Made by a program: the position numbers and the translations under genes
Notes under the pieces: generated by a model
Told to the model about the DNA's origin: nothing
Seen by the model: the letters and a program-made list of their open reading frames with translations, nothing else
The model's database searches: none
IMG/VR virus record: IMGVR_UViG_3300036781_000714
Span: 1,021-65,020 of that record
Strand: one strand, 5' to 3'
Length of the DNA: 64,000 nt
Origin: a virus
Taxonomy: Duplodnaviria; Caudoviricetes
Shown: piece after piece, positions 14,909-62,093 of the stretch
Numbering within the stretch: position 1 is the first letter of the stretch
How the letters are laid out: each line of letters begins with the position of its first letter

Positions 14909-15216
14909 TGGTCGCGGCCTACGCTGCGAACGTGATCTTCCGTGAGACCGAGCCGCTTGAGGCGAATCCCCTGCGCCGTCTCGTTGAGGGAGTCGATCGT
15001 ATCATCGACATCGCCGTCATGCGCGCCGACGTAGCCCCGGGCGATGCTTTGTAGTGTGTTCTCGCGGGGATTGCCGGTCATCGCCCGCTTGAGCGGCGAA
15101 CTCTCCCCTGCCGCATCACGTCGCGACTTCAATAACTCGGCGGCCGACTCCGCGTAGGCGCGCGCCGCCTTCTTCACGACGGCCTTAGGGTCCATCCCGG
15201 TCGCGTTAGTGGCCAT
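14905..15216 (-). CDS. Hypothetical protein
   Basis: 103 aa with GGAGG RBS; coupled to the dinD-like gene. Confidence 0.65.
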   Translation of the reverse strand: MATNATGMDPKAVVKKAARAYAESAAELLKSRRDAAGESSPLKRAMTGNPRENTLQSIARGYVGAHDGDVDDTIDSLNETAQGIRLKRLGLTEDHVRSVGRDQ

Positions 15217-15231
15217 GCTCGCCTCCGATGG

Positions 15232-15471
15232 CTAGCGACGCTTCTTGTCGGACGAGAAGTCGAGAATCTCGCGTGGGTCCACGCCGAGCGCCGCGCCGAG
15301 TGACTCCAGCGTGGCGAAAGAGACTTGCTTCGTCTTGTTCAGAACGATCGCGTTGACCGTCGTCATGGAAACGTTCGACTTCCGAGACAGGTCCGTCTGA
15401 GACATCGGCGGATTCTGTTTGTCGAGAATTTCCTTCAGTCGGAATCGGAGAGGCATGGTGGCCAGTTCCAT
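15232..15471 (-). CDS. Small XRE/Cro-C1 HTH regulator
   Basis: RLKEILDK..MSQTDLSRKSNVSMTTVNAIVLNKTKQVSFATLESLGAALGVDPREIL. Confidence 0.88.
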   Translation of the reverse strand: MELATMPLRFRLKEILDKQNPPMSQTDLSRKSNVSMTTVNAIVLNKTKQVSFATLESLGAALGVDPREILDFSSDKKRR

Positions 15472-15479
15472 GAGACGCA

Positions 15480-15555
15480 ATCTTACATGCGCCCACGCCT
15501 AACAGCAAGGTGTTAAAAGGAAGGTGTTGACATTCTACAACCTTCCTTTTAGTGT
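15480..15555. promoter_or_regulatory. Divergent promoters with 11-bp inverted-repeat operator
   Basis: Minus: TTGCTG-17-TAAGAT; plus: TTGACA(15527)-17-TAGTGT(15550); IR TAAAAGGAAGG(15514-24)/CCTTCCTTTTA(15541-51). Confidence 0.7.
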
Positions 15556-15685
15556 CTTCCTGCAAGAAAGAGCCAGCCGGAATGCCCTGGTAGACAGATC
15601 CGGACTGGCTCCTCACGGACCACGAAGGGACCGCACCTGCAAAGTACAGGTACGTGCCCTCGCCGACAACCAACGAGGATGGCGT

Positions 15686-16051
15686 ATGGCAACGAAACCG
15701 AGAATGGTGAGCACGTCGAAGCGAGAGACGCGACCCGAACCGGCGCAACCCGAGCGACCGGTGTCCTGGACGGCGAGTCAGCTGCACATCGTGACTGCGG
15801 AGAACGGCCTCGTGGACATGGAACTCGGCAATCACATATCCGGGGGGTTGGGCGTTGCGGTGCTGATCCGATCTCTGCGTCCTGAATCGAAGACCGGCGA
15901 AGAGCGGCGCATTCGCTTCGTGATTGATCAGCCCCATGTAATCAACGGCGCGGACGAACTGCGGCGGCTTGCGAAGGCGTTGACGAGTGCCGCCGATGAA
16001 CTCGACAGTACCGCGTGGATTGAACAGACGCTGCGCCAGCGGAGCGCCTGA
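15686..16051 (+). CDS. Hypothetical protein, first gene of the RAMP-like operon
   Basis: GAGG RBS; MATKPRMVST... Confidence 0.7.
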   Translation: MATKPRMVSTSKRETRPEPAQPERPVSWTASQLHIVTAENGLVDMELGNHISGGLGVAVLIRSLRPESKTGEERRIRFVIDQPHVINGADELRRLAKALTSAADELDSTAWIEQTLRQRSA

Positions 16052-16054
16052 ACC

Positions 16055-16681
16055 GTGGCCAAGAAAAAAGAAGTGGCCGTGCAGCCCAGCGCGCCAAATG
16101 GCGCTATCACGATTCCGCCGTTGACTATTCAACGACTGCAGCTGGGCGTCGTCGGCGATTCCCCGCTCATCATGCATCGCTGGAGCGAAAAGGCGAAAGC
16201 GATCATGCTTGGGCGAATGATGAAGAAGGCGAAAGCCGCCAAAGCGGCTCGCGATCCCGAAGCAGACTTCTATGAGTCGATGTACATCCTGCAGGACAAC
16301 AAGCAACGTGATCTGACGAAGATGGTGTTCGGATTTCCGAGCGTCGGATTCAAAAGTGCACTGGTCGACGCCGCAAGTTTCGTCGACGGCATTACCAAGG
16401 TCGCAGTTCGAGGCGCTCTTCACCTCGTTGGTGAATACGTCATCATCAACGGTCTGCCCACTATGCGCGAAGACACCGTTCGCGTAGGCATGGGCGCGGC
16501 CGACCTGCGCTATCGCGGCGAATTCCGCGACTGGAGCGCAACGCTGGATGTCGCGCTCAATCCGAGCGTATTGAGCGCCGAGCAAATCGCGCACTTGGCG
16601 AATCTCGCCGGGTTTGCGGTCGGCGTCGGCGAATGGCGCCCACAACGCGACGGCCAGTTCGGTCGGTTCCACGTCGTTTAA
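16055..16681 (+). CDS. Stand-alone RAMP/Cas7-like protein (Vipr-like candidate RNA-guided effector)
   Basis: N-terminal strand VVGDSPLIMH, FPSVGFKSALVDAA helix, thumb hairpin MREDTVRVGMGAADLRYRGEF, C-terminal G-rich loop AGFAVGVGEWRPQRDGQFGRF. Confidence 0.75.
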   Translation: MAKKKEVAVQPSAPNGAITIPPLTIQRLQLGVVGDSPLIMHRWSEKAKAIMLGRMMKKAKAAKAARDPEADFYESMYILQDNKQRDLTKMVFGFPSVGFKSALVDAASFVDGITKVAVRGALHLVGEYVIINGLPTMREDTVRVGMGAADLRYRGEFRDWSATLDVALNPSVLSAEQIAHLANLAGFAVGVGEWRPQRDGQFGRFHVV

Positions 16682-16700
16682 CAATCTTCCGAGAATACTC

Positions 16701-17183
16701 ATGGTATACGAATGGGCGAGCGGCGCCCGGTTCCCTGCCGAAGCACAAGCGATCGGTGATCGGTGCGAACTGTTGCGCAAACGACACGGCGGCACGGTCG
16801 CGCCGGAACACGTTTTGGAAGATGCGGAGAAGAAGTCGTCTCCTCTGCACTCGTGCTTCGAGTGGAACGACGAGCGCGCCGCCCACGAATACCGACTCAC
16901 GCAAGCGCGGCTCGTACTCCGCTCGTTGGTGGTCGTCGTCGATGAGCGTGTCCCCGAACCGGTGCGCGCGTTCGTCTCCGTGCGCACCGTCGACGAGGAC
17001 GACGCGCCGAGTCGTCGGTACACTGCGATCGCCGATGCGCTCGAAGACTCAGTCATGCGCGAACAACTCCTCGAGTCTGCGCGGCGCGAGATCAAGTCGT
17101 GGCGCTCGAAGTACCAACGGCTCGACGAACTCGCGGCCATCTTTTCGGTCGTTGACGAACAGCTTGAGATTCAGCATTCCTGA
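16701..17183 (+). CDS. Phage protein adjacent to the RAMP-like gene (putative partner)
   Basis: SPLHSCFEWNDERAAHEYRLTQARLVLRS motif; starts 19 nt after the RAMP stop. Confidence 0.75.
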   Translation: MVYEWASGARFPAEAQAIGDRCELLRKRHGGTVAPEHVLEDAEKKSSPLHSCFEWNDERAAHEYRLTQARLVLRSLVVVVDERVPEPVRAFVSVRTVDEDDAPSRRYTAIADALEDSVMREQLLESARREIKSWRSKYQRLDELAAIFSVVDEQLEIQHS

Positions 17184-17278
17184 GTCTCGCCGAAGAGATA
17201 CCGATACGTTGATGAGAAGTTGCCAATCTGTCGGCTGTCACGTAGGCTCTGCCCCTCATTTCGCACGAGGAAAGGCAC

Positions 17279-17497
17279 ATGGCGGCCGACGAAGGAGACA
17301 TGTTCAAACCCGGGGACGACTGTCCCCAATCGGGGATTTATCGCGTGGTGCATGATCCGGAGCACACCAAGGAGCATGATGTCACCGTGGTGTACGGGGA
17401 ACCGTTTCCCCCGTGCAACGGTTGCGGGGCGCACCCGAGGTTTGTTCTCAAGCACAAAGCGCAGCACATCCGGAACAATGAGCATTTCAAAGAGTGA
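17279..17497 (+). CDS. YjzC-like small Zn-ribbon protein
   Basis: FKPGDDCPQSGIY...GEPFPPC; GAGG RBS. Confidence 0.7.
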   Translation: MAADEGDMFKPGDDCPQSGIYRVVHDPEHTKEHDVTVVYGEPFPPCNGCGAHPRFVLKHKAQHIRNNEHFKE

Positions 17498-17720
17498 CGC
17501 GGTCATCGTCAAGAATGGAGACGTTTCCTTCAACGTCGTCTTCGCTCTGCTGCGTGATGCGACGTCCGCAGTCGCACTGCCACGTCAATCCGACGTACAG
17601 TACGGAGCCTCGGAGCTCGTTGGTGCGCTCGAAGTGTTTCGCGAGTCGTCCGCAGTGCGTGCACATCGGGGTATGAATAGTCTTCGTGGCCACGGCGGTC
17701 GCTTCTGATGACATTCCCAT
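17487..17720 (-). CDS. Small Zn-ribbon protein
   Basis: CTHC...CDC; GAGG upstream. Confidence 0.5.
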   Translation of the reverse strand: MGMSSEATAVATKTIHTPMCTHCGRLAKHFERTNELRGSVLYVGLTWQCDCGRRITQQSEDDVEGNVSILDDDRVTL

Positions 17721-17743
17721 TGCGTAGTTCCTCAGCGCAGTGA

Positions 17744-17772
17744 TTGACGAAAAATTCGTGGGCAGATAGTGT
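17744..17772 (+). promoter_or_regulatory. Sigma70-type promoter of the pentamer-array RNA
   Basis: TTGACG-17 nt-TAGTGT. Confidence 0.7.
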
Positions 17773-17835
17773 TGCTCGCTCTTCGTTCGACGGGTGGTGT
17801 GACCGACCCTAAAGCAGCAACGCGGTCACCTTCAT

Positions 17836-17966
17836 GGCAGGCGTGGCAAGGCGGGGCGTGCCCCGGCGTGGTTCGGTCTGGCTCGGCATGGCAAGGCACG
17901 GCAGGCAAGGCTAGGCGTGGTGTGGTGAGGCCAGGTGCGGCGGGTCAAGGCTAGGCGTGGTTGGCT
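17836..17966 (+). repeat. GGY-NN pentamer array; two units, each opened by GGCA
   Basis: Unit 1 (17836-17899) NN = GT AA GG GT CC GT TC CT TC AT AA AC; unit 2 (from 17900) NN = AA TA GT GT GA CA GC GG AA TA GT; only 2 of 23 triplets deviate (GCC, GTC). Confidence 0.92.
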
Positions 17967-17972
17967 GGAATC

Positions 17973-18008
17973 GAGAGCGCTCGGGCGAAATCCCGGGCGC
18001 TTCTCTTT
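17973..18008 (+). terminator. Intrinsic terminator after the array
   Basis: GCGCTCGGG-CGAAAT-CCCGGGCGC-TTCTCTTT. Confidence 0.7.
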
Positions 18009-18039
18009 GCACATCGATGCAGTTGAAGTAACATCCAGC

Positions 18040-18255
18040 ATGCCGTTTTGGGTGCGTGTTCGACTCATTCGCATGGTCGGCGTCGGCCTTGCTGCGATCG
18101 TCTTCGCAACTACGATCGCGCTCGTTCGCCTTGGCGTTTCGCCAGAACGTTTCAACAAGCTCCGCCCGATAGAATCCAAAGCGCGGAGCCTCGTTCTCCT
18201 TATCGGCGCAATCATCACGATGATTCTGTTCGCGGCGAGCATGAAGATTTACTGA
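18040..18255 (+). CDS. Small two-TM membrane protein
   Basis: Two hydrophobic segments in 71 aa. Confidence 0.55.
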   Translation: MPFWVRVRLIRMVGVGLAAIVFATTIALVRLGVSPERFNKLRPIESKARSLVLLIGAIITMILFAASMKIY

Positions 18256-21236
18256 CCTGACCCGAGTCGTTTTTGCATCGGCTTGGCGAGCGCACCTGCG
18301 CCGCGAGCACCAGCGGCCGTGGAGAATCGGTCAAGCAACTTTCGCATCTCACCGTGCACGACCGATGCAGCCTGAGCTTTCTGAACGCTCGTGGCATCGG
18401 TCGATGTGAGAATCCTCGCGATCTCGGCGTCTGTCATCGCTCGAGCTTTATTCGCAGACTCTTTCGCCGCACCACCGAGCAACGTTTTCGCGGCGCCGCC
18501 TACATTTCCGCCGACGAGCTGCATCGCCGCCGATCCGGTCGCCTTGTCGCGAGACGCGTCCTCGGCAACGCGACGCGCGGTCTGTGATCCTCCAAGAATG
18601 CGATCAATCTTGCCTTGGAGATCGTCCCATCCCCTTACTGTGTTTTGAAATTCCTGATGGGACGTCGCATCCGGGAAGGCGTGGGCGACCTGCGCGAGTC
18701 GCTCAGGCGACTTCGCGACGACCTGACCAGGTGAGCGAAGGCGCATGTTCGCCGCATCGAGCTTCCCGCGCACAGCTTGGGCGGCGCCTTGCTGCAGCGC
18801 CTTTTGCTCGTCCGGCGACATGGCAGATTTGTCGACGGCGAGCTGCGCGAGACTCTTCTCAGGTGAATTCCCTGATGGTGCGGCGCGGTACTTCGTAATG
18901 TCGAGTCCCGTGCGCGCCGCGGCCGACGTTGCCGATTCCTCAGGAATTGGCGGCGCGGCTGGAATCTGATGCGGGACTGCAGCGAGTGCGTCGGCGAGTT
19001 TTGCGGGAGTCGCTGCATCCCCGGTCGCGAGCGCGATACGTCGCGCCATCGCCGATTTCGGATCGCCTAACGCGGCGACTTGCTTCGCGCTGAATCCGGG
19101 GCCGTTTCTGAGTTTATCCGTGACCGCAGAGAGCGCGCCCGTGCGATACGCCTGCTGTTCAATCGCTGGCGCTGCACCGACATCGCGTTCGATCGCGTCA
19201 AGCGATTGGTAGATCGCTTTTTTCCCGGCTGGGTTGGTTTGCGCGCGCATCACATCACGGCCTTTGTTCAACGCGTCGATCACACGCGAACGAGCCGAGT
19301 ACGCATCGTCGGCGCTGCGCCATACATCTGGGAGTTCGCTGCGGACTTTGCCCCAGATATTGAGTGCGCCCTGTGCCTGCGTCGCAACCGTTCCGCCAGC
19401 GCCATCATGAATGCCGAGTCGCGCCGTCTGCGCGAGTTTCTGCTTCATGAGGTGCAACACTTCCGGATCGGGCAATTCTTTGTCACCAGCAATGTCCGGC
19501 ATTGAGATCCCGCGCTCAGCCGCGGTCATTTGCACGTTCGCCCACTGCTCGGGCGAATAGCCCGCAGGCGCACCGCCCGTCGTCGGCAGTGGCGACATGC
19601 GATTGCCTTTCTGCGCCTTCGCCCAAGAGAAGGCCTGCTGTCCCGCAGGAGTTTTTAGAATATCATCAAGTGTCTCGGAGCGAACGGCCTGGCCTTGTGT
19701 CGCCGCGCGAGCCTTTCCATACAGGTCGGCCGCTTCTTTCGAGCGATCATCGACATACTGCCGCAGCGTTCCGATAGCGTTGTCGTTTCCCCCCGTCACA
19801 GACTGCCAAGCGTCGAGATGTTTCGGCACGTCCGGTTCAGCCGCGTTAGTCTCCGCAGTGACCGTCTTCGCGACGTTTGCCACGTTTGCGCGACTCGCTT
19901 GCTCGTCCGAGAGACGACGTAGCAGCGCTTCGCCGTCTTCGCGTGTCGTGCCGGTGCCCTGGTCGAACGCCTTGGTCACCGCATCGCGCATCTGGCCTTG
20001 CCGGTCATTGGCCGCCTTTGTGATGATCGCCCTGCCCGGCCCAGGTCTGTTCGCGATATTCTCGGCCAACCCAGTGACACTCGGGCCGCCACGTTCGAGC
20101 ACAGAAAGCTCGACGCCTTTCGGGCCATCGGACGGCGTGAATCCGGCCGCCTGGTCTTCTGCGGCTCGTTGCGCGATCTCTGTGTTGGCCGCTCCACGAG
20201 CGCCAAGTGCATTGGCTACATCGCGGAGTTTTCCGGCCGCCTTGCTGCCCTGCGGCAGCTTATCTGCGAGCGCATCGGCCGCTGCCTGTGTGAGCCGCGT
20301 CCCGCCAAGGCGAGCCACGCCTTTCGACACGAGTTCGCCGGCTGGTTGCGCAATCGCGCCGCCGACCGCGCCTTCCGCTGCACCGATCCCTGCACCTTTC
20401 GCGCGATCTTCGATGCCGCCTTCGGCGTTCCCTGCACCACTCGCAGCGCCGATCGCGGCACCGGTTCCTGCTGCGCGGAGAATTCGAGCACCGCGCGACG
20501 CGTTTGACGCGGCGTTGACCGCTTCAGCGGCCTTCGCCCCTATACCTACCGCTCGCGCACCTGCGCCGAGGAGTGCTCCACCGGCCAACGCCCCACCGAC
20601 TGCCCCAGTCACCTCGCCGACACCGGACGCGATTGGATGTGCGTCGGAATACTCCTTTAGCGCTGCCCGTTCGGCCGCGACATTTTGGTCATACGACTTT
20701 CTTAATGTTGAACCAAAGTCGCCACCATGAAGAAACTTCGCCTTCGCCGCATCAACCAACGCGTCGGCTGCCGCATTCATTTCATCAGAGAATTCGGATG
20801 TCGCGCCGTGCGCGAGGACGTCGCCCATGCCGACGCGGGCATTCGACCCATCGTACTTCTGTGTATTGCTGCCGACTACTGGCGGTGTGACGGCTGCTGA
20901 AGCACTCGGCTGCGCAGCACTGGTCAGCGGTTTGTATGTCCCATTCGCGAGCGCATGCGTGCGCTCTACGACGAGACCCGGATCGGCGCCGGCCGCGAGC
21001 GCCGTATTGGCGTCTTGCGCATGCTGCGGATTCGCCTTGAGGAATGTCAACACCTGGCCGAGTCGCGCATTGACGGCGTTTACTGGCGCGCCCTGCGTGA
21101 TTGCCTCGTTCGCACCGAGACCGAGATAGTGCTCGATCGTGCTGGGCGTCTGCGGAGATCCCGGTATTTGAGGCGTTGCCTGAGGCGGCGCACCGAGATC
21201 GATATTGCCGCCTGGATCGATTCGAGGACCGGTCAT
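18249..21236 (-). CDS. Large Ala/Gly-rich internal virion (DNA ejection) protein
   Basis: 995 aa with GAAIGAASGAG-type segments; last gene of the tail/ejection block. Confidence 0.7.
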   Translation of the reverse strand: MTGPRIDPGGNIDLGAPPQATPQIPGSPQTPSTIEHYLGLGANEAITQGAPVNAVNARLGQVLTFLKANPQHAQDANTALAAGADPGLVVERTHALANGTYKPLTSAAQPSASAAVTPPVVGSNTQKYDGSNARVGMGDVLAHGATSEFSDEMNAAADALVDAAKAKFLHGGDFGSTLRKSYDQNVAAERAALKEYSDAHPIASGVGEVTGAVGGALAGGALLGAGARAVGIGAKAAEAVNAASNASRGARILRAAGTGAAIGAASGAGNAEGGIEDRAKGAGIGAAEGAVGGAIAQPAGELVSKGVARLGGTRLTQAAADALADKLPQGSKAAGKLRDVANALGARGAANTEIAQRAAEDQAAGFTPSDGPKGVELSVLERGGPSVTGLAENIANRPGPGRAIITKAANDRQGQMRDAVTKAFDQGTGTTREDGEALLRRLSDEQASRANVANVAKTVTAETNAAEPDVPKHLDAWQSVTGGNDNAIGTLRQYVDDRSKEAADLYGKARAATQGQAVRSETLDDILKTPAGQQAFSWAKAQKGNRMSPLPTTGGAPAGYSPEQWANVQMTAAERGISMPDIAGDKELPDPEVLHLMKQKLAQTARLGIHDGAGGTVATQAQGALNIWGKVRSELPDVWRSADDAYSARSRVIDALNKGRDVMRAQTNPAGKKAIYQSLDAIERDVGAAPAIEQQAYRTGALSAVTDKLRNGPGFSAKQVAALGDPKSAMARRIALATGDAATPAKLADALAAVPHQIPAAPPIPEESATSAAARTGLDITKYRAAPSGNSPEKSLAQLAVDKSAMSPDEQKALQQGAAQAVRGKLDAANMRLRSPGQVVAKSPERLAQVAHAFPDATSHQEFQNTVRGWDDLQGKIDRILGGSQTARRVAEDASRDKATGSAAMQLVGGNVGGAAKTLLGGAAKESANKARAMTDAEIARILTSTDATSVQKAQAASVVHGEMRKLLDRFSTAAGARGAGALAKPMQKRLGSGQ

Positions 21237-51728: not shown

Positions 51729-53231
51729 TCACACCGCTGCGGCCGCGCGCGCCGCTTTCTCCGATTGCCAGTTCTCGAAACTCGGGAAGCCGCACCGATC
51801 GGCGCTCAGCTTCTGCACCTCGGCGCTGATCGCCCGGCCGATGAACGACGAGCTCCGGTCGTACCCGTCGTAGCGCGCTTCGACCTCGCGGACGATTCCG
51901 CGCAGTTCGAGTTCGTTGGCTTCGCCCCACGCGATCGCCGCGGCGCGGCGCTCGTGGTCGTACTCGGATTCCGCCGCGCGCTCTGCGCGCTCGAGCTCCT
52001 GCTGCACCACGCTTGAGATGGCGCGTGGTGCACCGCCGCGGTTCTCGCTCGACGCCAACCCGATGCTGCCGGCGATCTGGCGTGCGCCTGCATCGAACGC
52101 TTTCTGCTCAGCGTCGCGAAACGCGTCGAAGATCGGCTCGCGGAAATACCCGATGGCTTTCATCGGCGCCGACAACTTCGAGGCTTTGCAGACACTCACG
52201 ATCGTGCGTCGCGCGAGATCGATCGGGACACCCGCGGTGATCAATTCGCTCGCCAGTGCGGACGAGGCGCCGTAGTTGATCGGGTGGATCTGCTCGCCCC
52301 ATTTGTCTTCGATGCCCATGTTCGCGGCGCTGGTGATGGCGAGCGCGAATTGGCGGATTTCCTCAGCGCGTTTTTCGTCCGGCTTTTCGTCAGCAACAGC
52401 AGCGGCTTTTTCGATCAGCGGACCTACAGAGATGCTTGCTGTTGCTGTATGAACTTTATCTTGAGAAATACTAGTACTACTGTCTTTCATGTCTTTAGGA
52501 CGCTGCAATGTCTCATCGAATAAAGACTTACGCTCGATATAGTGGCCCGGTGTCGGGGCACTAAGTGGCCCGGTGTCGGGGCACTCACTTTTTTCGGCCT
52601 TCTCAGGAGTGCCCTGGTATTGGGGCACTGGCAGTGCCCTGGTATTGGGGCACTGATCTTCGGCGTCGTCGTCAAACTCTTCTATAGAAGTAGTGCCCTG
52701 ATGTTGGGGCACTTCGTCGATCTCGTATTCGTCCTCCTCGTCCGCCATTTCTTCGGCGTATTGCCGCGCTTGCGCTGCGCGTTTGCGACGCTGCTCTTCC
52801 ATATGCTCGGCCTTCGCCACCTTGAACGCCGTGTCGTCGTGCTCTGGTCGATCGCTGAAATACGCGGACAATCGACCAGTGGGCATGCTGTATTTGCCCC
52901 ACTGCGTGTAGTCCTTTTGCATGCCCCACAGTGGGCGCTTCACGCCGCGAGAACGACCAAACGCGAAGATCACTCCCTCCTTCAGCAGGAGGTCGAGATC
53001 GTCGCGTGCAGCGCCCCCTGAACGCCGCGCATCGGGACCAGGACCGAGTCCAGAGATCTCGAGAAGCTGGGGCGCCGACATGCGCACGCTGCGGCGATTC
53101 CACCCATAGGTTAGCCGCATGAGCGTCCACAGAATTCGATCCTGACGGGCACTGAATCCCGCACCGATCATCGCTTCGGCGAGTCGGTTTGCGACCTTCA
53201 TATGACCCTTCGCAAGCTGAACGTCTTCCAC
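51729..53231 (-). CDS. Replication initiator (lambda O-like N-terminus)
   Basis: GHMKVANRLAEA..FSARQDRILWTLMRLTYGWN...QKDYTQW; internal iterons. Confidence 0.85.
   Translation of the reverse strand: MEDVQLAKGHMKVANRLAEAMIGAGFSARQDRILWTLMRLTYGWNRRSVRMSAPQLLEISGLGPGPDARRSGGAARDDLDLLLKEGVIFAFGRSRGVKRPLWGMQKDYTQWGKYSMPTGRLSAYFSDRPEHDDTAFKVAKAEHMEEQRRKRAAQARQYAEEMADEEDEYEIDEVPQHQGTTSIEEFDDDAEDQCPNTRALPVPQYQGTPEKAEKSECPDTGPLSAPTPGHYIERKSLFDETLQRPKDMKDSSTSISQDKVHTATASISVGPLIEKAAAVADEKPDEKRAEEIRQFALAITSAANMGIEDKWGEQIHPINYGASSALASELITAGVPIDLARRTIVSVCKASKLSAPMKAIGYFREPIFDAFRDAEQKAFDAGARQIAGSIGLASSENRGGAPRAISSVVQQELERAERAAESEYDHERRAAAIAWGEANELELRGIVREVEARYDGYDRSSSFIGRAISAEVQKLSADRCGFPSFENWQSEKAARAAAAV
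52440..52713. repeat. Replication origin: five 22-bp quasi-palindromic iterons plus AT-rich flank
   Basis: AGTGSCC-N8-GGGCACT at 52541, 52564, 52608, 52633, 52692; AT-rich 52440-52530. Confidence 0.85.
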
Positions 53232-60351: not shown

Positions 60352-61131
60352 TCATGACGCGGCCTCGGCGAACTCAGGGTACATCGCGCGCTTCACCGCG
60401 TTGGCGATCGCGCGGCCCATCGGGAGCGGGACCCCGTTGCCGATCATTTTGCGAATAGCCGTGTCGGTAAACGGAGATTCCGCGAAAAGGTTTGGTGGTG
60501 CTCCTTGCCGACGGAGCATCTCAGCGATTGAAAGTCGCGGGCCGTTGCCGCTTGTGACGCGATTCGCCGGAACACCCGGCTTGGCCTTTCGCTTACCACT
60601 GCCGCCGATAGCAACCGGTTGAATGCGCGCGTCAGAGCAGACCGCGGGATACGATTGCTCGCCGTGGAGTGCACGCTGCTCAATGGTGAACGATGCAGGC
60701 GCGATGCCCGTGTGGAAATTATGAACGCCAAACGAGAAGCGGCGGAGACGCGACGTTTCCCCACCAACCCAATCATCGCGCACTAACTGCGAGCGGACGC
60801 GAAAATGAGGCGTATTGGGCTCCGGCGCCGCCTCAACGTTCTCCATCACGAACCAATGCGGCCGGGCATCGTTCACGACCCGCTCGAACTCGGGGATCAT
60901 GTTGCCGTGCTTTTCGCCGCAGCGTGGGTTCAGGCGCTTGAACGCCGAGAAGAGCTGGCAGGGTGGCCCGCCGATGATTCCATCGAAGCGATCAGCAGTC
61001 GGATGAAACGCGCGCACGTCGCCGCCCCACAGCAGATCGGGTCCGCGCACGACGCAGAACCCCGCTTCCTCGAACGCCATGTCGAGGAGCCCGATCCCAG
61101 GAAACAACGAAAGCACTAACGGCTGTGTCAT
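60352..61131 (-). CDS. DNA cytosine-5 methyltransferase
   Basis: LSLFPGIG, GGPPCQLFS, MENV, R.R.F, IGNGV. Confidence 0.9.
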   Translation of the reverse strand: MTQPLVLSLFPGIGLLDMAFEEAGFCVVRGPDLLWGGDVRAFHPTADRFDGIIGGPPCQLFSAFKRLNPRCGEKHGNMIPEFERVVNDARPHWFVMENVEAAPEPNTPHFRVRSQLVRDDWVGGETSRLRRFSFGVHNFHTGIAPASFTIEQRALHGEQSYPAVCSDARIQPVAIGGSGKRKAKPGVPANRVTSGNGPRLSIAEMLRRQGAPPNLFAESPFTDTAIRKMIGNGVPLPMGRAIANAVKRAMYPEFAEAAS

Positions 61132-62093
61132 CGGCTTCCTTCGCTCTCCTGCGGGGAAAGGGTGGCAACATTGGCAGTAGCAGCCAACGCCGCTTCCTCC
61201 GCAGCACACCGACGCATGTCCGCCATCGCGACGTCGTTCGACTCGTAGAAGCGCGGCGGGGACACGCGGATCGGGCTCGAGGCTTTGTAGATCAACTGCG
61301 CCGCGAGCTGCGTGTCGTGATACGCCTCTAGTGCGCGCCCGGCATCGCCCGCGAGCGTCACGACCCATCCACCGCGACAGTGCGTCGTGTCGCACGTATG
61401 CCAGGTGCTCATGTCGAGCGCGTTCGGTGCGGAGACAGCCGCGAGCACTTGCTGATGGATGTTCGGGATCTTCGGCACGTCCGACGACGGCACAACGTCA
61501 CCGCGCTTGCCACTGGCGCCGATGTCGCCCGAGCAATCCGAGCAATCCGAGCAATCCGAGCAACCCGAGCAATCCGAGCAACCCGAGCAATCCGAGCAAT
61601 CCGAGCAACCCGAGCAACCCGAGCAATCCGAGCAACCCGAGCAATCCGAGCAACCCGAGCAACGCGAGCAACGCGAGCAACCCGAGCAATCCGAGCAATC
61701 CGAGCAACCCGAGCAACGCGAGCAACGCGAGCAACCCGAGCAATCCGAGCAATCCGAGCAACCCGAGCAACCCGAGCAATCCGAGCAACCCGAGCAATCC
61801 GAGCAACCCGAGCAACGCGAGCAACGCGAGCAACGCGAGCAATCCGAGCAATCCGAGCAACGCGAGCAACCCGAGCAATCCGAGCAACCCGAGCAACGCG
61901 AGCAACGCGAGCAACCCGAGCAATCCGAGCAACCCGAGCAACCCGAGCAATCCGAGCAACCCCAACATCCTTGATTGCCGCGTTCTTCATCCCACGTCGG
62001 ATTGGTGTCGGCGAACGCTTGCGACACGCCGTTGATGGACGGATCTGGGCGACGGGCAAAGGCGGCATAGGACGCGAAGATTTCAGTTCTCAT
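61128..62093 (-). CDS. Cys-Ser-X tandem-repeat protein with phage C-terminal domain
   Basis: 48 x CS(D/G/R); C-terminal LDMSTWHTCDTTHCRGGWVVTLAG. Confidence 0.75.
   Translation of the reverse strand: MRTEIFASYAAFARRPDPSINGVSQAFADTNPTWDEERGNQGCWGCSDCSGCSGCSDCSGCSRCSRCSGCSDCSGCSRCSDCSDCSRCSRCSRCSGCSDCSGCSDCSGCSGCSDCSDCSGCSRCSRCSGCSDCSDCSGCSRCSRCSGCSDCSGCSDCSGCSGCSDCSDCSGCSDCSGCSDCSDCSDCSGDIGASGKRGDVVPSSDVPKIPNIHQQVLAAVSAPNALDMSTWHTCDTTHCRGGWVVTLAGDAGRALEAYHDTQLAAQLIYKASSPIRVSPPRFYESNDVAMADMRRCAAEEAALAATANVATLSPQESEGSR
61527..61958. repeat. 48 x 9-bp tandem repeat
   Basis: Units such as CCGAGCAAT / CCGAGCAAC / GCGAGCAAC. Confidence 0.95.

What the first reader, a model, noticed from the sequence alone, without database searches (positions are those of the whole stretch)
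17836..17966. The array decodes into two separate guide-like units of 12 and 11 dinucleotides
Seen: the strict 5-nt period is broken by a 4-nt GGCA at 17836 and 17900, which looks like a unit boundary or processing mark, and the array ends in GGT-T-GGC-T. Unit 1 NN: GT AA GG GT CC GT TC CT TC AT AA AC. Unit 2 NN: AA TA GT GT GA CA GC GG AA TA GT. The NN positions are diverse and more AT-rich than this GC-rich genome, while GGY is nearly invariant (2 deviations in 23). A decaying microsatellite would not show this pattern. Inference: the NN string carries target information. If every third target base is skipped, the targets are GTnAAnGGnGTnCCnGTnTCnCTnTCnATnAAnAC and AAnTAnGTnGTnGAnCAnGCnGGnAAnTAnGT, or their complements; such a code could ignore codon wobble positions.
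Basis: partly seen in the sequence, partly recalled or inferred. Interest (0 to 1): 0.88.

Follow-up and report, generated by a model that had tools for sequence, protein, structure and literature searches.

The report
Phage VIPR guide-RNA array, two guides

Summary
At 17836-17966 (+) lie GGCA, 12 GGYNN repeats, GGCA, 11 GGYNN repeats, then GGTT GGCT. The array scores 21.4, against at most 4.0 in 30 simulations.

It is the vrRNA array of a VIPR system (bioRxiv 10.64898/2026.04.26.720920). There, a small RAMP-like Vipr protein binds each GGY, and the NN dinucleotides pair with DNA, skipping every third target base.

Evidence here:
- A 208-aa gene 1.1 kb upstream (16055-16681) matches the solved SUSP1 Vipr protein (profile E 1.5e-8).
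- It keeps that protein's GGY-contact residues and folds like Cas7/Csm3.
- A conserved accessory gene follows it.
- 69 of 80 related viral loci carry same-strand arrays, punctuated by GGCA into units of mostly 8-11 repeats.
- In a local search with 267 unit-defined guides, only the 1-base-skip rule gave perfect non-self targets. NN positions vary about 2.6 times more than GGY.

No target of this window's two guides was found, and no RNA data exist. Processing at GGCA is inferred.

Verdict: real, first reading supported, new member of a known kind.

The parts
16055..16681 (+). vipr: 208-aa RAMP-like (Cas7-like) protein that should bind one GGY per protomer
   Evidence: It hits phrog_4652 at E 1.8e-27. 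A profile of 62 homologs hits PDB 36pp_D 'SUSP1 Vipr protein' at E 1.5e-8. H41, R154, E193, W194 and R195 align with SUSP1 H17, R138, D177, W178 and R179 and are invariant in the alignment. The AF2 model has pLDDT 82.8, and the top Foldseek hits are Csm3/Cas7.
16704..17183 (+). vap-like accessory gene (159 aa), function unknown
   Evidence: It hits phrog_15946 at E 1.6e-25. The same phrog lies between vipr and the array in Cyanophage Cy-LDV1. There is no Pfam hit, no PDB sequence hit and no named Atlas cluster. 15 homologs share an SPLH..FEW..AA..YR..QAR core.
17279..17497 (+). Small Cys-rich ORF (72 aa) in the 650-nt spacer between vap and the array; whether it belongs to the system is unknown
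   Evidence: ORF list. It has only a sub-threshold YjzC-like Pfam hit (21.8 bits, cut-off 25) and no PHROG hit. In most relatives the array starts within about 0.5-0.8 kb of the vipr stop, with no such spacer.
17799..17829 (+). 7-bp hairpin just upstream of the first GGCA (possible leader element; weak)
   Evidence: The fold gives -11.9 kcal/mol and is not better than shuffles (z +0.81). By eye, many relatives have some hairpin followed by about 5 nt ending in 'cat' before the first GGCA; this was not tested for covariation.
17836..17839 (+). First 4-nt GGCA mark (start of guide 1)
   Evidence: GGCA makes up 415 of 544 4-nt steps in the family's arrays.
17840..17899 (+). vrRNA guide unit 1: 12 GGYNN repeats
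   Evidence: The unit length lies within the published 9-16 repeats and at the upper end of the family distribution, whose mode is 9.
17900..17903 (+). Second GGCA mark (boundary between guides; 1-nt register shift)
   Evidence: It fits the 'staggered vrRNA arrays' legend. In a relative, a perfect target match ends exactly at the marks.
17904..17958 (+). vrRNA guide unit 2: 11 GGYNN repeats
17959..17966 (+). Degenerate array end, GGTT GGCT
17973..18009 (+). Intrinsic-terminator-like hairpin plus T-rich tail that closes the array transcript
   Evidence: The fold gives -24.5 kcal/mol, z -2.67, with 3 of 200 shuffles as good. By eye, many relatives have a GC hairpin with a T tract within about 20-60 nt after the array. 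The simple terminator scan did not call it.

Best explanation
The array is the guide-RNA (vrRNA) array of a phage-encoded VIPR system: vipr at 16055-16681, a vap-like gene at 16704-17183, and the array at 17836-17966, all on the + strand and closed by a terminator hairpin.

The mechanism is shown for homologous systems and inferred here. The array is transcribed. Vipr protomers polymerise along the RNA, one per 5-nt repeat. Each protomer sequesters a GGY and presents the two N bases. The string of NN dinucleotides pairs with one strand of double-stranded DNA, with every third target base flipped out. The bound filament represses transcription of the target, typically a gene of a competing phage, prophage, satellite or rival VIPR system.

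The 4-nt GGCA steps shift the register by one base and delimit two separate guides of 12 and 11 dinucleotides (a 'staggered array'). Their targets would read GTnAAnGGnGTnCCnGTnTCnCTnTCnATnAAnAC and AAnTAnGTnGTnGAnCAnGCnGGnAAnTAnGT, on either strand.
For: 1. Literature. VIPR systems with vrRNAs of 9-16 GGY/NN repeats, the 1-nt skip rule, wobble alignment and staggered arrays are described in the papers read.

2. Protein.
- The upstream gene belongs to phrog_4652.
- Its 62-sequence profile hits the solved SUSP1 Vipr protein at E 1.5e-8.
- The residues that the cryo-EM paper names as G1, G2 and Y3 contacts align to invariant H41, R154, E193, W194 and R195.
- The AF2 model (pLDDT 82.8) matches Csm3, type VII Cas7, Cmr6 and Cascade Cas7, with 49 PDB chains at E <= 1e-3.

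3. Association.
- 69 of 80 viral loci encoding a relative carry an array of score >= 6.
- 102 of 103 arrays in 94 loci are on the vipr strand.
- phrog_4652 genes also flank the arrays in Mycobacterium phages Quico and ByChance and in Cyanophage Cy-LDV1.

4. Boundaries. GGCA makes up 415 of 544 4-nt steps, and 255 of 448 units hold 8-12 repeats.

5. Code, tested with 267 unit-defined guides against 747 kb with arrays masked.
- Hits with 0/1/2 mismatched bases were 2/1/34 for skip 1, 0/0/12 for skip 0 and 0/0/17 for skip 2.
- Skip 3 gave 3/0/12, where the 3 perfect hits are the guides' own unmasked arrays.
- Five shuffles of NN order gave 0 perfect hits, 0-2 one-mismatch hits and 11-26 two-mismatch hits.
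- At >= 85% NN match there were 48 real hits against 16-29 in six shuffles.
- The perfect match of one guide ends exactly at its two GGCA marks.

6. Variation. In alignable blocks of 7 related array pairs (an eighth pair gave no block), 66/845 GGY positions differ against 105/512 NN positions. The closest pair shows 0/81 against 2/51, with a 100% identical 600-nt flank.

7. RNA. The array has no more structure than shuffles (z -0.44) and is followed by a terminator-like hairpin.

8. Self-targeting. No self-target was found. The best hits anywhere in the local database, which includes the window, have 7 mismatches for guide 1; the window's own best hit for guide 2 also has 7.
Against: - No natural target of either guide was found. 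The gapped patterns gave 0 exact hits in viral contigs and metagenome contigs.
- Neither guide had a hit with <= 3 mismatches in 50 related viral records and 12 bacterial genomes.
- Partial 8-NN patterns gave only hits whose remaining bases match at chance level. One exception scored 22/24, in a 31-33% G+C phage that is an unlikely cohabitant.
- The clade-level enrichment under skip 1 is modest beyond the perfect hits. Much of the hot spot comes from one guide hitting a conserved vap motif in 11 homologous loci.
- Shuffled guides also favour the coding frame: 64/137, against 29/48 for real guides.
- The comparison of GGY and NN variation uses alignments that lean on the GGY register.
- Expression, processing at GGCA and binding by Vipr are untested here.
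- No sigma-70-like promoter was called.
- Unlike most relatives, the array lies 650 nt beyond vap.
- The similarity to the characterised Vipr exists only at profile level.
Confidence: 0.9

Rival explanations
1. The array is one continuous protein-binding RNA, a sponge or attenuator like the TRAP-binding (G/U)AG repeats or CsrB. It titrates or positions an oligomeric RNA-binding protein, and the NN bases carry no information.
For: A constant triplet with 2-nt spacers is the logic of TRAP sites (recalled, not tested). The array lies on the sense strand just upstream of a small ORF at 18040-18255. No target of the two guides was found.
Against: The neighbouring protein is a Vipr homolog with conserved GGY-contact residues. 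In the same clade, unit-defined NN strings have perfect gapped matches in other phages only under skip 1. NN positions vary about 2.6 times more than GGY, which a pure spacer would not need in unit-wise modules.
Confidence: 0.04
2. It is a decaying pentanucleotide microsatellite, or a DNA-level structural element such as a two-tier G-quadruplex tract or an origin or primase site, with no RNA role.
For: GG-N3-GG spacing could in principle form two-tetrad G4s (inference). TRF reports period-5 and period-10 fragments.
Against: A slippage product would not keep GGY while randomising NN, and it would not be punctuated by GGCA in 415 of 544 steps across 94 loci. It would not sit on the vipr strand in 102 of 103 cases. 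The third position is held as a pyrimidine in 95% of repeats, which a G4 does not require.
Confidence: 0.02
3. It is a coding repeat. The open frames across the array (17769-17954 on +, 61 aa; 17832-18242 on -, 136 aa) encode a repeat protein.
For: Frames are open. In Mycobacterium phage ByChance the equivalent array is annotated as CDS gp39, 'hypothetical protein'.
Against: A 5-nt period with 4-nt steps cannot keep a reading frame. GGYNN arrays are intrinsically nearly stop-free, since only NN = TA in one phase gives TAG (read from the sequence). In Quico the same element is left intergenic.
Confidence: 0.01
4. The element is a VIPR array, but the two units are not separate guides. One long RNA of about 130 nt is used, or the GGCA steps are merely degenerate repeats.
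For: No RNA ends are available. The paper reports sRNA-seq confirmation for two other array architectures and none for staggered arrays. 129 of 544 4-nt steps are not GGCA.
Against: The unit lengths between marks peak at 8-11, within or next to the published 9-16 repeats per vrRNA. A perfect 9-NN target match in a relative stops at both marks, and the neighbouring units do not continue it. Units appear to be gained and lost as modules between Quico and ByChance (by eye). The legend of fig. S18 describes such boundaries.
Confidence: 0.15

Closest known systems
VIPR type II systems of Escherichia phage SUSP1 and a Pseudomonas fulva prophage (bioRxiv 10.64898/2026.04.26.720920; structures in 10.64898/2026.04.26.720927; PDB 36pp)
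   Same: A small RAMP-like Vipr with the same GGY-contact residues. Guides of GGY/NN repeats within the 9-16 range. A vipr-vap gene pair with the array on the same strand. A phage host. In this clade, gapped targets in frame with codons, some of them in rival VIPR genes.
   Different: Similarity is only at profile level (E 1.5e-8). There is no conserved 3' tail or pseudoknot after each guide; instead the guides abut and are separated only by a 4-nt GGCA. The accessory gene is phrog_15946, with no recognisable DNA-binding domain. The array lies 650 nt beyond vap.
'Staggered vrRNA arrays' of the same paper (fig. S18; legend only seen)
   Same: The legend says individual vrRNAs derive from positions overlapping by 1 nt, so the end of one marks the start of the next. 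This is what a 4-nt step in a 5-nt array amounts to.
   Different: The figure and supplementary tables could not be seen, so I cannot say which of the seven types this locus belongs to, or whether GGCA is the described junction. The main text reports sRNA-seq confirmation for two other array architectures and none for staggered arrays.
Class 1 CRISPR-Cas backbone (Cas7/Csm3 filament on crRNA)
   Same: The RAMP fold: Foldseek top hits are 6xn3_F, type VII Cas7, Cmr6 and 4qyz_I. One protomer binds per RNA segment, with periodic base flipping.
   Different: There is no CRISPR repeat-spacer array, and no Rfam CRISPR-DR or other family hit. The guide period is 5 nt with 3 bases sequestered, and the target period is 3 nt, instead of 6 and 6. 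I did not search for cas genes. The element is phage-borne.
TRAP binding sites in the Bacillus trp leader (recalled from general knowledge, not tested)
   Same: Conserved triplets separated by 2-3 variable bases, read by an oligomer with one subunit per triplet.
   Different: The triplet is GGY, not (G/U)AG. The associated protein is a RAMP, not TRAP. Here the spacer bases carry the information.

Membership tests
VIPR system | Encodes a Vipr protein homologous to characterised Vipr | tested here: met
   A profile of 62 homologs hits PDB 36pp_D 'SUSP1 Vipr protein' at E 1.5e-8, covering chain residues 2-181.
VIPR system | Vipr has a RAMP fold (RRM core, thumb, glycine-rich loop) | tested here: met
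   The AF2 model has pLDDT 82.8 and pTM 0.76. Foldseek finds 49 PDB chains at E <= 1e-3, led by Csm3/Cas7 chains with TM about 0.45. The C-terminal GFAVGVGEWRP loop is invariant. I did not inspect the thumb in 3D.
VIPR system | Residues that read G1, G2 and Y3 are conserved (SUSP1 H17, R138, D177, W178, R179) | tested here: met
   They align to H41, R154, E193 (D to E), W194 and R195, all invariant in 62 sequences. The alignment comes from HMMER, not from a structure superposition.
VIPR system | A vrRNA of YNNGG/GGYNN tandem repeats (at least 4; typically 9-16) beside vipr on the same strand | tested here: met
   12 + 11 repeats lie 1.15 kb downstream of vipr on the + strand. Arrays are present in 69 of 80 related viral loci, and 102 of 103 arrays are on the vipr strand.
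VIPR system | GGY conserved while NN is hypervariable among relatives | tested here: met
   Family position frequencies are G 0.97, G 0.85 and Y 0.95, while all 16 NN dinucleotides occur at 3-12%. Close pairs differ at 7.8% of GGY positions against 20.5% of NN positions. The alignment leans on the GGY register.
VIPR system | An accessory vap gene next to vipr | tested here: inconclusive
   A conserved neighbour (phrog_15946) is present here and in Cy-LDV1. Its equivalence to vap1-6 could not be checked, because the supplementary data are closed. It has no Pfam or PDB match.
VIPR system | Guides match natural targets under the 1-nt skip rule | tested here: inconclusive
   For this window's two guides no target was found. 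For the clade, 2 perfect and 1 one-mismatch hits occurred only under skip 1, against 0 perfect in 5 shuffles.
VIPR system | vrRNAs are expressed, processed and bound by Vipr | not testable with these tools
   The only listed holder of the sequence is one soil-metagenome DNA run, and no RNA run is listed.
VIPR type II (SUSP1-like) | Each vrRNA ends in a conserved structured 3' tail (a pseudoknot in the SUSP1 clade) | tested here: not met
   The two guides are separated by 4 nt only. A single terminator-like hairpin follows the whole array. The locus is therefore not filed as type II.
CRISPR-Cas | Repeat-spacer array and an adaptation module | tested here: not met
   No Rfam family, including CRISPR-DR models, reached threshold in the window. 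TRF shows no repeat-spacer array near the locus. I did not search for cas genes with dedicated models.

The most novel reading that the evidence does not exclude
In this clade, vrRNAs are tail-less and are cut out of a continuous repeat tract at the 4-nt GGCA steps. Processing of this architecture was not among those the founding paper confirmed by RNA sequencing. Members of the clade occur in Alphaproteobacteria and other bacteria (records named for a Bacteroidota, a Bifidobacterium and an actinobacterial lineage), in cluster-F-type Mycobacterium phages, Gordonia phages and a cyanophage. The register shift itself, rather than a ribozyme or a structured tail, could set filament length and guide boundaries. 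A further possibility is that this phage's second guide is aimed at the vap or vipr gene of rival VIPR systems: it matches a conserved vap N-terminal motif at 16/22 and a vipr thumb motif at 17/22. That would make the locus part of a VIPR-against-VIPR arms race in soil phages.
Probability: 0.3. Interest if true: 0.55.

Novelty: new member of a known kind. Interest (0 to 1): 0.4.

Why it matters
That code was published only in 2026, so the finding is sound but not new.

What this locus adds:
- It is an uncultivated soil-phage example from a large clade of at least 94 fetched loci whose guides abut at GGCA marks.
- It gives independent computational support that the 1-nt skip rule and unit boundaries hold in that clade.
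- The same clade is present in cultivable Mycobacterium smegmatis and Gordonia phages, where processing of staggered arrays and natural targets could be tested directly.

Tried and rejected
My first hypotheses, before the literature search, were a TRAP-like binding array, a two-tier G-quadruplex and primase or origin sites. I dropped them once the Vipr homology and the clade-level target matches were in hand (see the rivals).

**RHH-regulator idea for guide 1.** I thought guide 1 might encode the N-terminal strand of an RHH regulator ('GVPVSLS'). I rejected this because that peptide is forced by the pattern, and the frame is not a real ORF in the hits.

**Exonuclease-motif idea for guide 1.** I thought guide 1, read antisense, might hit a conserved exonuclease motif ('ETGTP'). 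I rejected this because the hit proteins are unrelated to one another. The excess of in-frame hits is what codon composition gives.

**Target searches that found nothing convincing.**
- Exact full patterns in viral contigs and metagenome contigs: 0 hits.
- Guide 2, NN2-10: 0 hits.
- Guide 2, NN3-10: 4 hits. Guide 2, NN1-8: 4 hits. Their other bases match at chance level.
- Guide 1, NN3-10: 11 hits. Guide 1, NN1-8: 22 hits, which fall into about 9 sequence groups. The best scored 22/24, in a 31-33% G+C phage.
- Neither guide had a hit with <= 3 mismatches in 50 viral records and 12 genomes.

**Host inference failed.**
- A 646-aa protein has no tblastn match in the phage collection.
- The terminase has no match at E <= 1e-20 in 401 genomes sampled from one class.
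- The Atlas gives only 'Viruses'.

**RNA and structure.**
- No RNA holder is listed.
- The single-sequence AF2 model was useless (pLDDT 34.7) and was replaced by the alignment-based model.
- The leader hairpin is not better than shuffles.
- Rfam gave no family at gathering score; the E-value hits (SOX2OT and snoRNAs) are chance.

**Closed or unseen sources.**
- I did not open supplementary files of the papers. The VIPR type tables, data S3/S4 and figures S16-S18 may already list this clade or its junction.

Full report
**Observation**

Two of the 23 triplets deviate from GGY. The NN bases are 43% G+C in a window of 59-64% G+C.

A chain score for GGY triplets at 5-nt steps gives 21.4. The maximum in 30 Markov simulations of the window was 4.0. 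No other array of score >= 5 exists in the window. In the whole 65-kb IMG/VR virus record, the pattern scan matched only within this array on the forward strand and nowhere on the reverse strand; the backwards-read control gave 3 forward hits. Rfam has no family for it.

**How the identification came about**

A blastn search of 17000-19000 against the phage collection hit nothing but the array itself. The hits were in Mycobacterium phages Quico, Florinda and ByChance (Cheoctovirus) and in Cyanophage Cy-LDV1. Those phages hold the same kind of element: GGCNN repeats interrupted by 4-nt GGCA, on the sense strand of the early operon.

A full-text search for 'pentanucleotide repeat' with 'phage' and 'intergenic' then returned the bioRxiv paper 10.64898/2026.04.26.720920. 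I read its Results, Discussion and Methods parts 1-2, plus passages of the supplementary figure legends. It describes VIPR systems as follows:
- A protein of about 20 kDa, Vipr, which is RAMP-like.
- An accessory vap gene.
- vrRNAs of 9-16 YNNGG (GGY/NN) repeats.
- The NN dinucleotides pair with double-stranded DNA with one skipped base per repeat.
- The skipped base usually falls on the codon wobble position.
- The outcome is transcriptional repression of competing phages, prophages and satellites.

A companion cryo-EM paper, 10.64898/2026.04.26.720927 (outline and first part of Results read), shows one protomer per repeat. It names the residues that hold G1, G2 and Y3. A third paper, 10.64898/2026.10.15.759431 (outline and one section read), reports vrRNAs aimed at rivals' vipr genes.

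**Is this window a member?**

- *The vipr gene.* The ORF at 16055-16681 (208 aa) has no Pfam hit but belongs to phrog_4652. The same phrog flanks the arrays in Quico (gp57), ByChance (gp40) and Cy-LDV1 (g34).
- *The accessory gene.* The next gene, 16704-17183, is phrog_15946. The same phrog sits between vipr and the array in Cy-LDV1.
- *Homology to a solved Vipr.* A profile of 62 homologs hits PDB 36pp_D, 'SUSP1 Vipr protein', at E 1.5e-8.
- *Contact residues.* In that alignment SUSP1 H17, R138, D177, W178 and R179 fall on H41, R154, E193, W194 and R195. All five are invariant in the 62 sequences.
- *Fold.* The alignment-based AF2 model (pLDDT 82.8) finds Csm3, type VII Cas7, Cmr6, Cas7-11 and Cascade Cas7 as best PDB matches, with 49 chains at E <= 1e-3. 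The single-sequence model was unusable.

**Family survey**

I fetched 80 viral loci and 14 bacterial-genome loci that encode relatives at 39-62% identity. Most of the named genome records are Alphaproteobacteria; single records are named for a Bacteroidota (Flavipsychrobacter), a Bifidobacterium and an actinobacterial lineage (Nanopelagicales).

- 69 of the 80 viral loci carry an array of score >= 6. Four of the 11 without one hold about 0.5-0.7 kb or less beyond the vipr match.
- 102 of 103 arrays are on the vipr strand.
- GGCA accounts for 415 of 544 4-nt steps.
- The units between successive steps have a mode of 9 repeats, and 255 of 448 lie at 8-12. Short 'units' come mostly from degenerate stretches.
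- Position frequencies are G 0.97, G 0.85 and Y 0.95. All 16 NN dinucleotides occur.
- By eye, many arrays are followed by a GC hairpin and a T tract. Here the hairpin at 17973-18005 folds at -24.5 kcal/mol (z -2.67).
- The array itself is no more structured than shuffles (z -0.44).

**Test of the code in this clade**

I took 267 guides, defined as the units of 8-17 repeats between marks plus the two guides of this window. I scanned 747 kb (92 records, arrays masked, both strands) with 0-3 skipped bases.

| Rule | Hits with 0 / 1 / 2 mismatched bases |
|---|---|
| Skip 0 | 0 / 0 / 12 |
| Skip 1 | 2 / 1 / 34 |
| Skip 2 | 0 / 0 / 17 |
| Skip 3 | 3 / 0 / 12 (the 3 are the guides' own arrays that escaped masking) |
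| Skip 1, NN order shuffled, 5 runs | 0 / 0-2 / 11-26 |

- At >= 85% NN match there were 48 real hits, against 16-29 in six shuffles.
- The two perfect hits come from different loci and land on the same gene site in two other phages. For one of them the match stops exactly at the flanking GGCA marks.
- Other good hits lie on the first codons of genes or on a conserved motif at the 3' end of rivals' vap genes.

Caveats:
- The vap hot spot is mostly one guide hitting 11 homologous loci.
- Shuffled guides also prefer the coding frame: 64/137, against 29/48 for real guides.

**Variation**

In alignable blocks of seven related array pairs (an eighth pair gave no block), GGY positions differ at 66/845 and NN positions at 105/512. 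The closest pair has 0/81 against 2/51, beside a 600-nt flank that is 100% identical. In several pairs, homology runs through vipr and vap and breaks at the start of the array.

**What the two guides of this window target**

This is not resolved.
- Exact gapped patterns gave nothing in viral contigs or metagenome contigs.
- Neither guide had a hit with <= 3 mismatches in 50 related viral records and 12 genomes.
- Partial patterns gave only chance-like hits.
- The window has no self-target.
- There are two weak leads for guide 2. One is a 17/22 match, antisense, on the thumb motif of one vipr gene. The other is 16/22 matches, in frame, on a conserved N-terminal vap motif in four to five loci. 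Statistically these amount to one event, and I treat them as leads only.
- The host is unknown. The source is a soil metagenome. The phage has a portal, a terminase and a tail-spike-like protein, but I found no close relatives.

**Verdict**

The element is real. It is not type II, because it lacks per-guide tails. It fits the paper's 'staggered arrays', whose processing was not among the array architectures the paper confirmed by sRNA-seq.

Two steps are inferred rather than shown: expression and processing at GGCA, and the natural targets. The locus is a new member of a known kind.

I did not open supplementary files.

Noticed in passing
L009:2975-3240 (Mycobacterium phage Quico), L011:2972-3175 (ByChance), L010:2935-3095 (Cyanophage Cy-LDV1): Cultivable Cheoctovirus Mycobacterium phages and a cyanophage carry long GGCNN arrays with GGCA marks beside a phrog_4652 (Vipr-like) gene. 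In total, 34 phage records, including Gordonia phages and a Pseudomonas LES prophage-derived phage, encode a Vipr relative. In the Mycobacterium phages the array lies upstream of vipr. In ByChance it is annotated as a protein-coding gene (gp39), which looks like a mis-annotation. The VIPR paper's main text does not mention mycobacteria (0 occurrences).
   Followed up: partly
window 61128-62093 (-), repeat at 61528-61962: A 9-nt tandem repeat (CCCGAGCAA x 48, TRF score 667) lies inside a 321-aa ORF. In that ORF it encodes about 48 Cys-Ser-X tripeptides (CSG/CSD/CSR) between non-repetitive ends. This is an unusual cysteine-rich repeat protein for a phage. All six frames are open across the repeat, so the coding frame is not proven.
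   Followed up: partly
window 52541-52585 and 52608-52655: Two perfect tandem duplications of 23 and 25 nt (AGTGGCCCGGTGTCGGGGCACTA and AGTGCCCTGGTATTGGGGCACTGGC), each holding an inverted repeat (AGTGCC...GGCACT), lie 20 nt apart. They may be operator, iteron or attachment-type sites.
   Followed up: no
window 17184-17835: A 650-nt spacer separates vap from the array, unlike in most relatives. It holds a 72-aa Cys-rich ORF on + (sub-threshold YjzC-like hit) and a 77-aa CxxC ORF on -. It is unclear whether this is an insertion, an extra accessory gene or an own promoter region.
   Followed up: partly
L025:197-219 and L028:3251-3273: Two related phages (about 85% identical flanks) each carry an 8-NN guide that matches, with 2 mismatches, codons 2-9 of the same small gene (MNKY(R/L)GNKG) in the other phage. 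This looks like reciprocal targeting but is at the edge of chance for 8-NN guides.
   Followed up: partly
window 15206-17140 (-): A 644-aa open frame runs antisense across vipr and vap. It has no family hits on its own, and it overlies two genes with family support. It is most likely a high-G+C artefact, not a gene.
   Followed up: no
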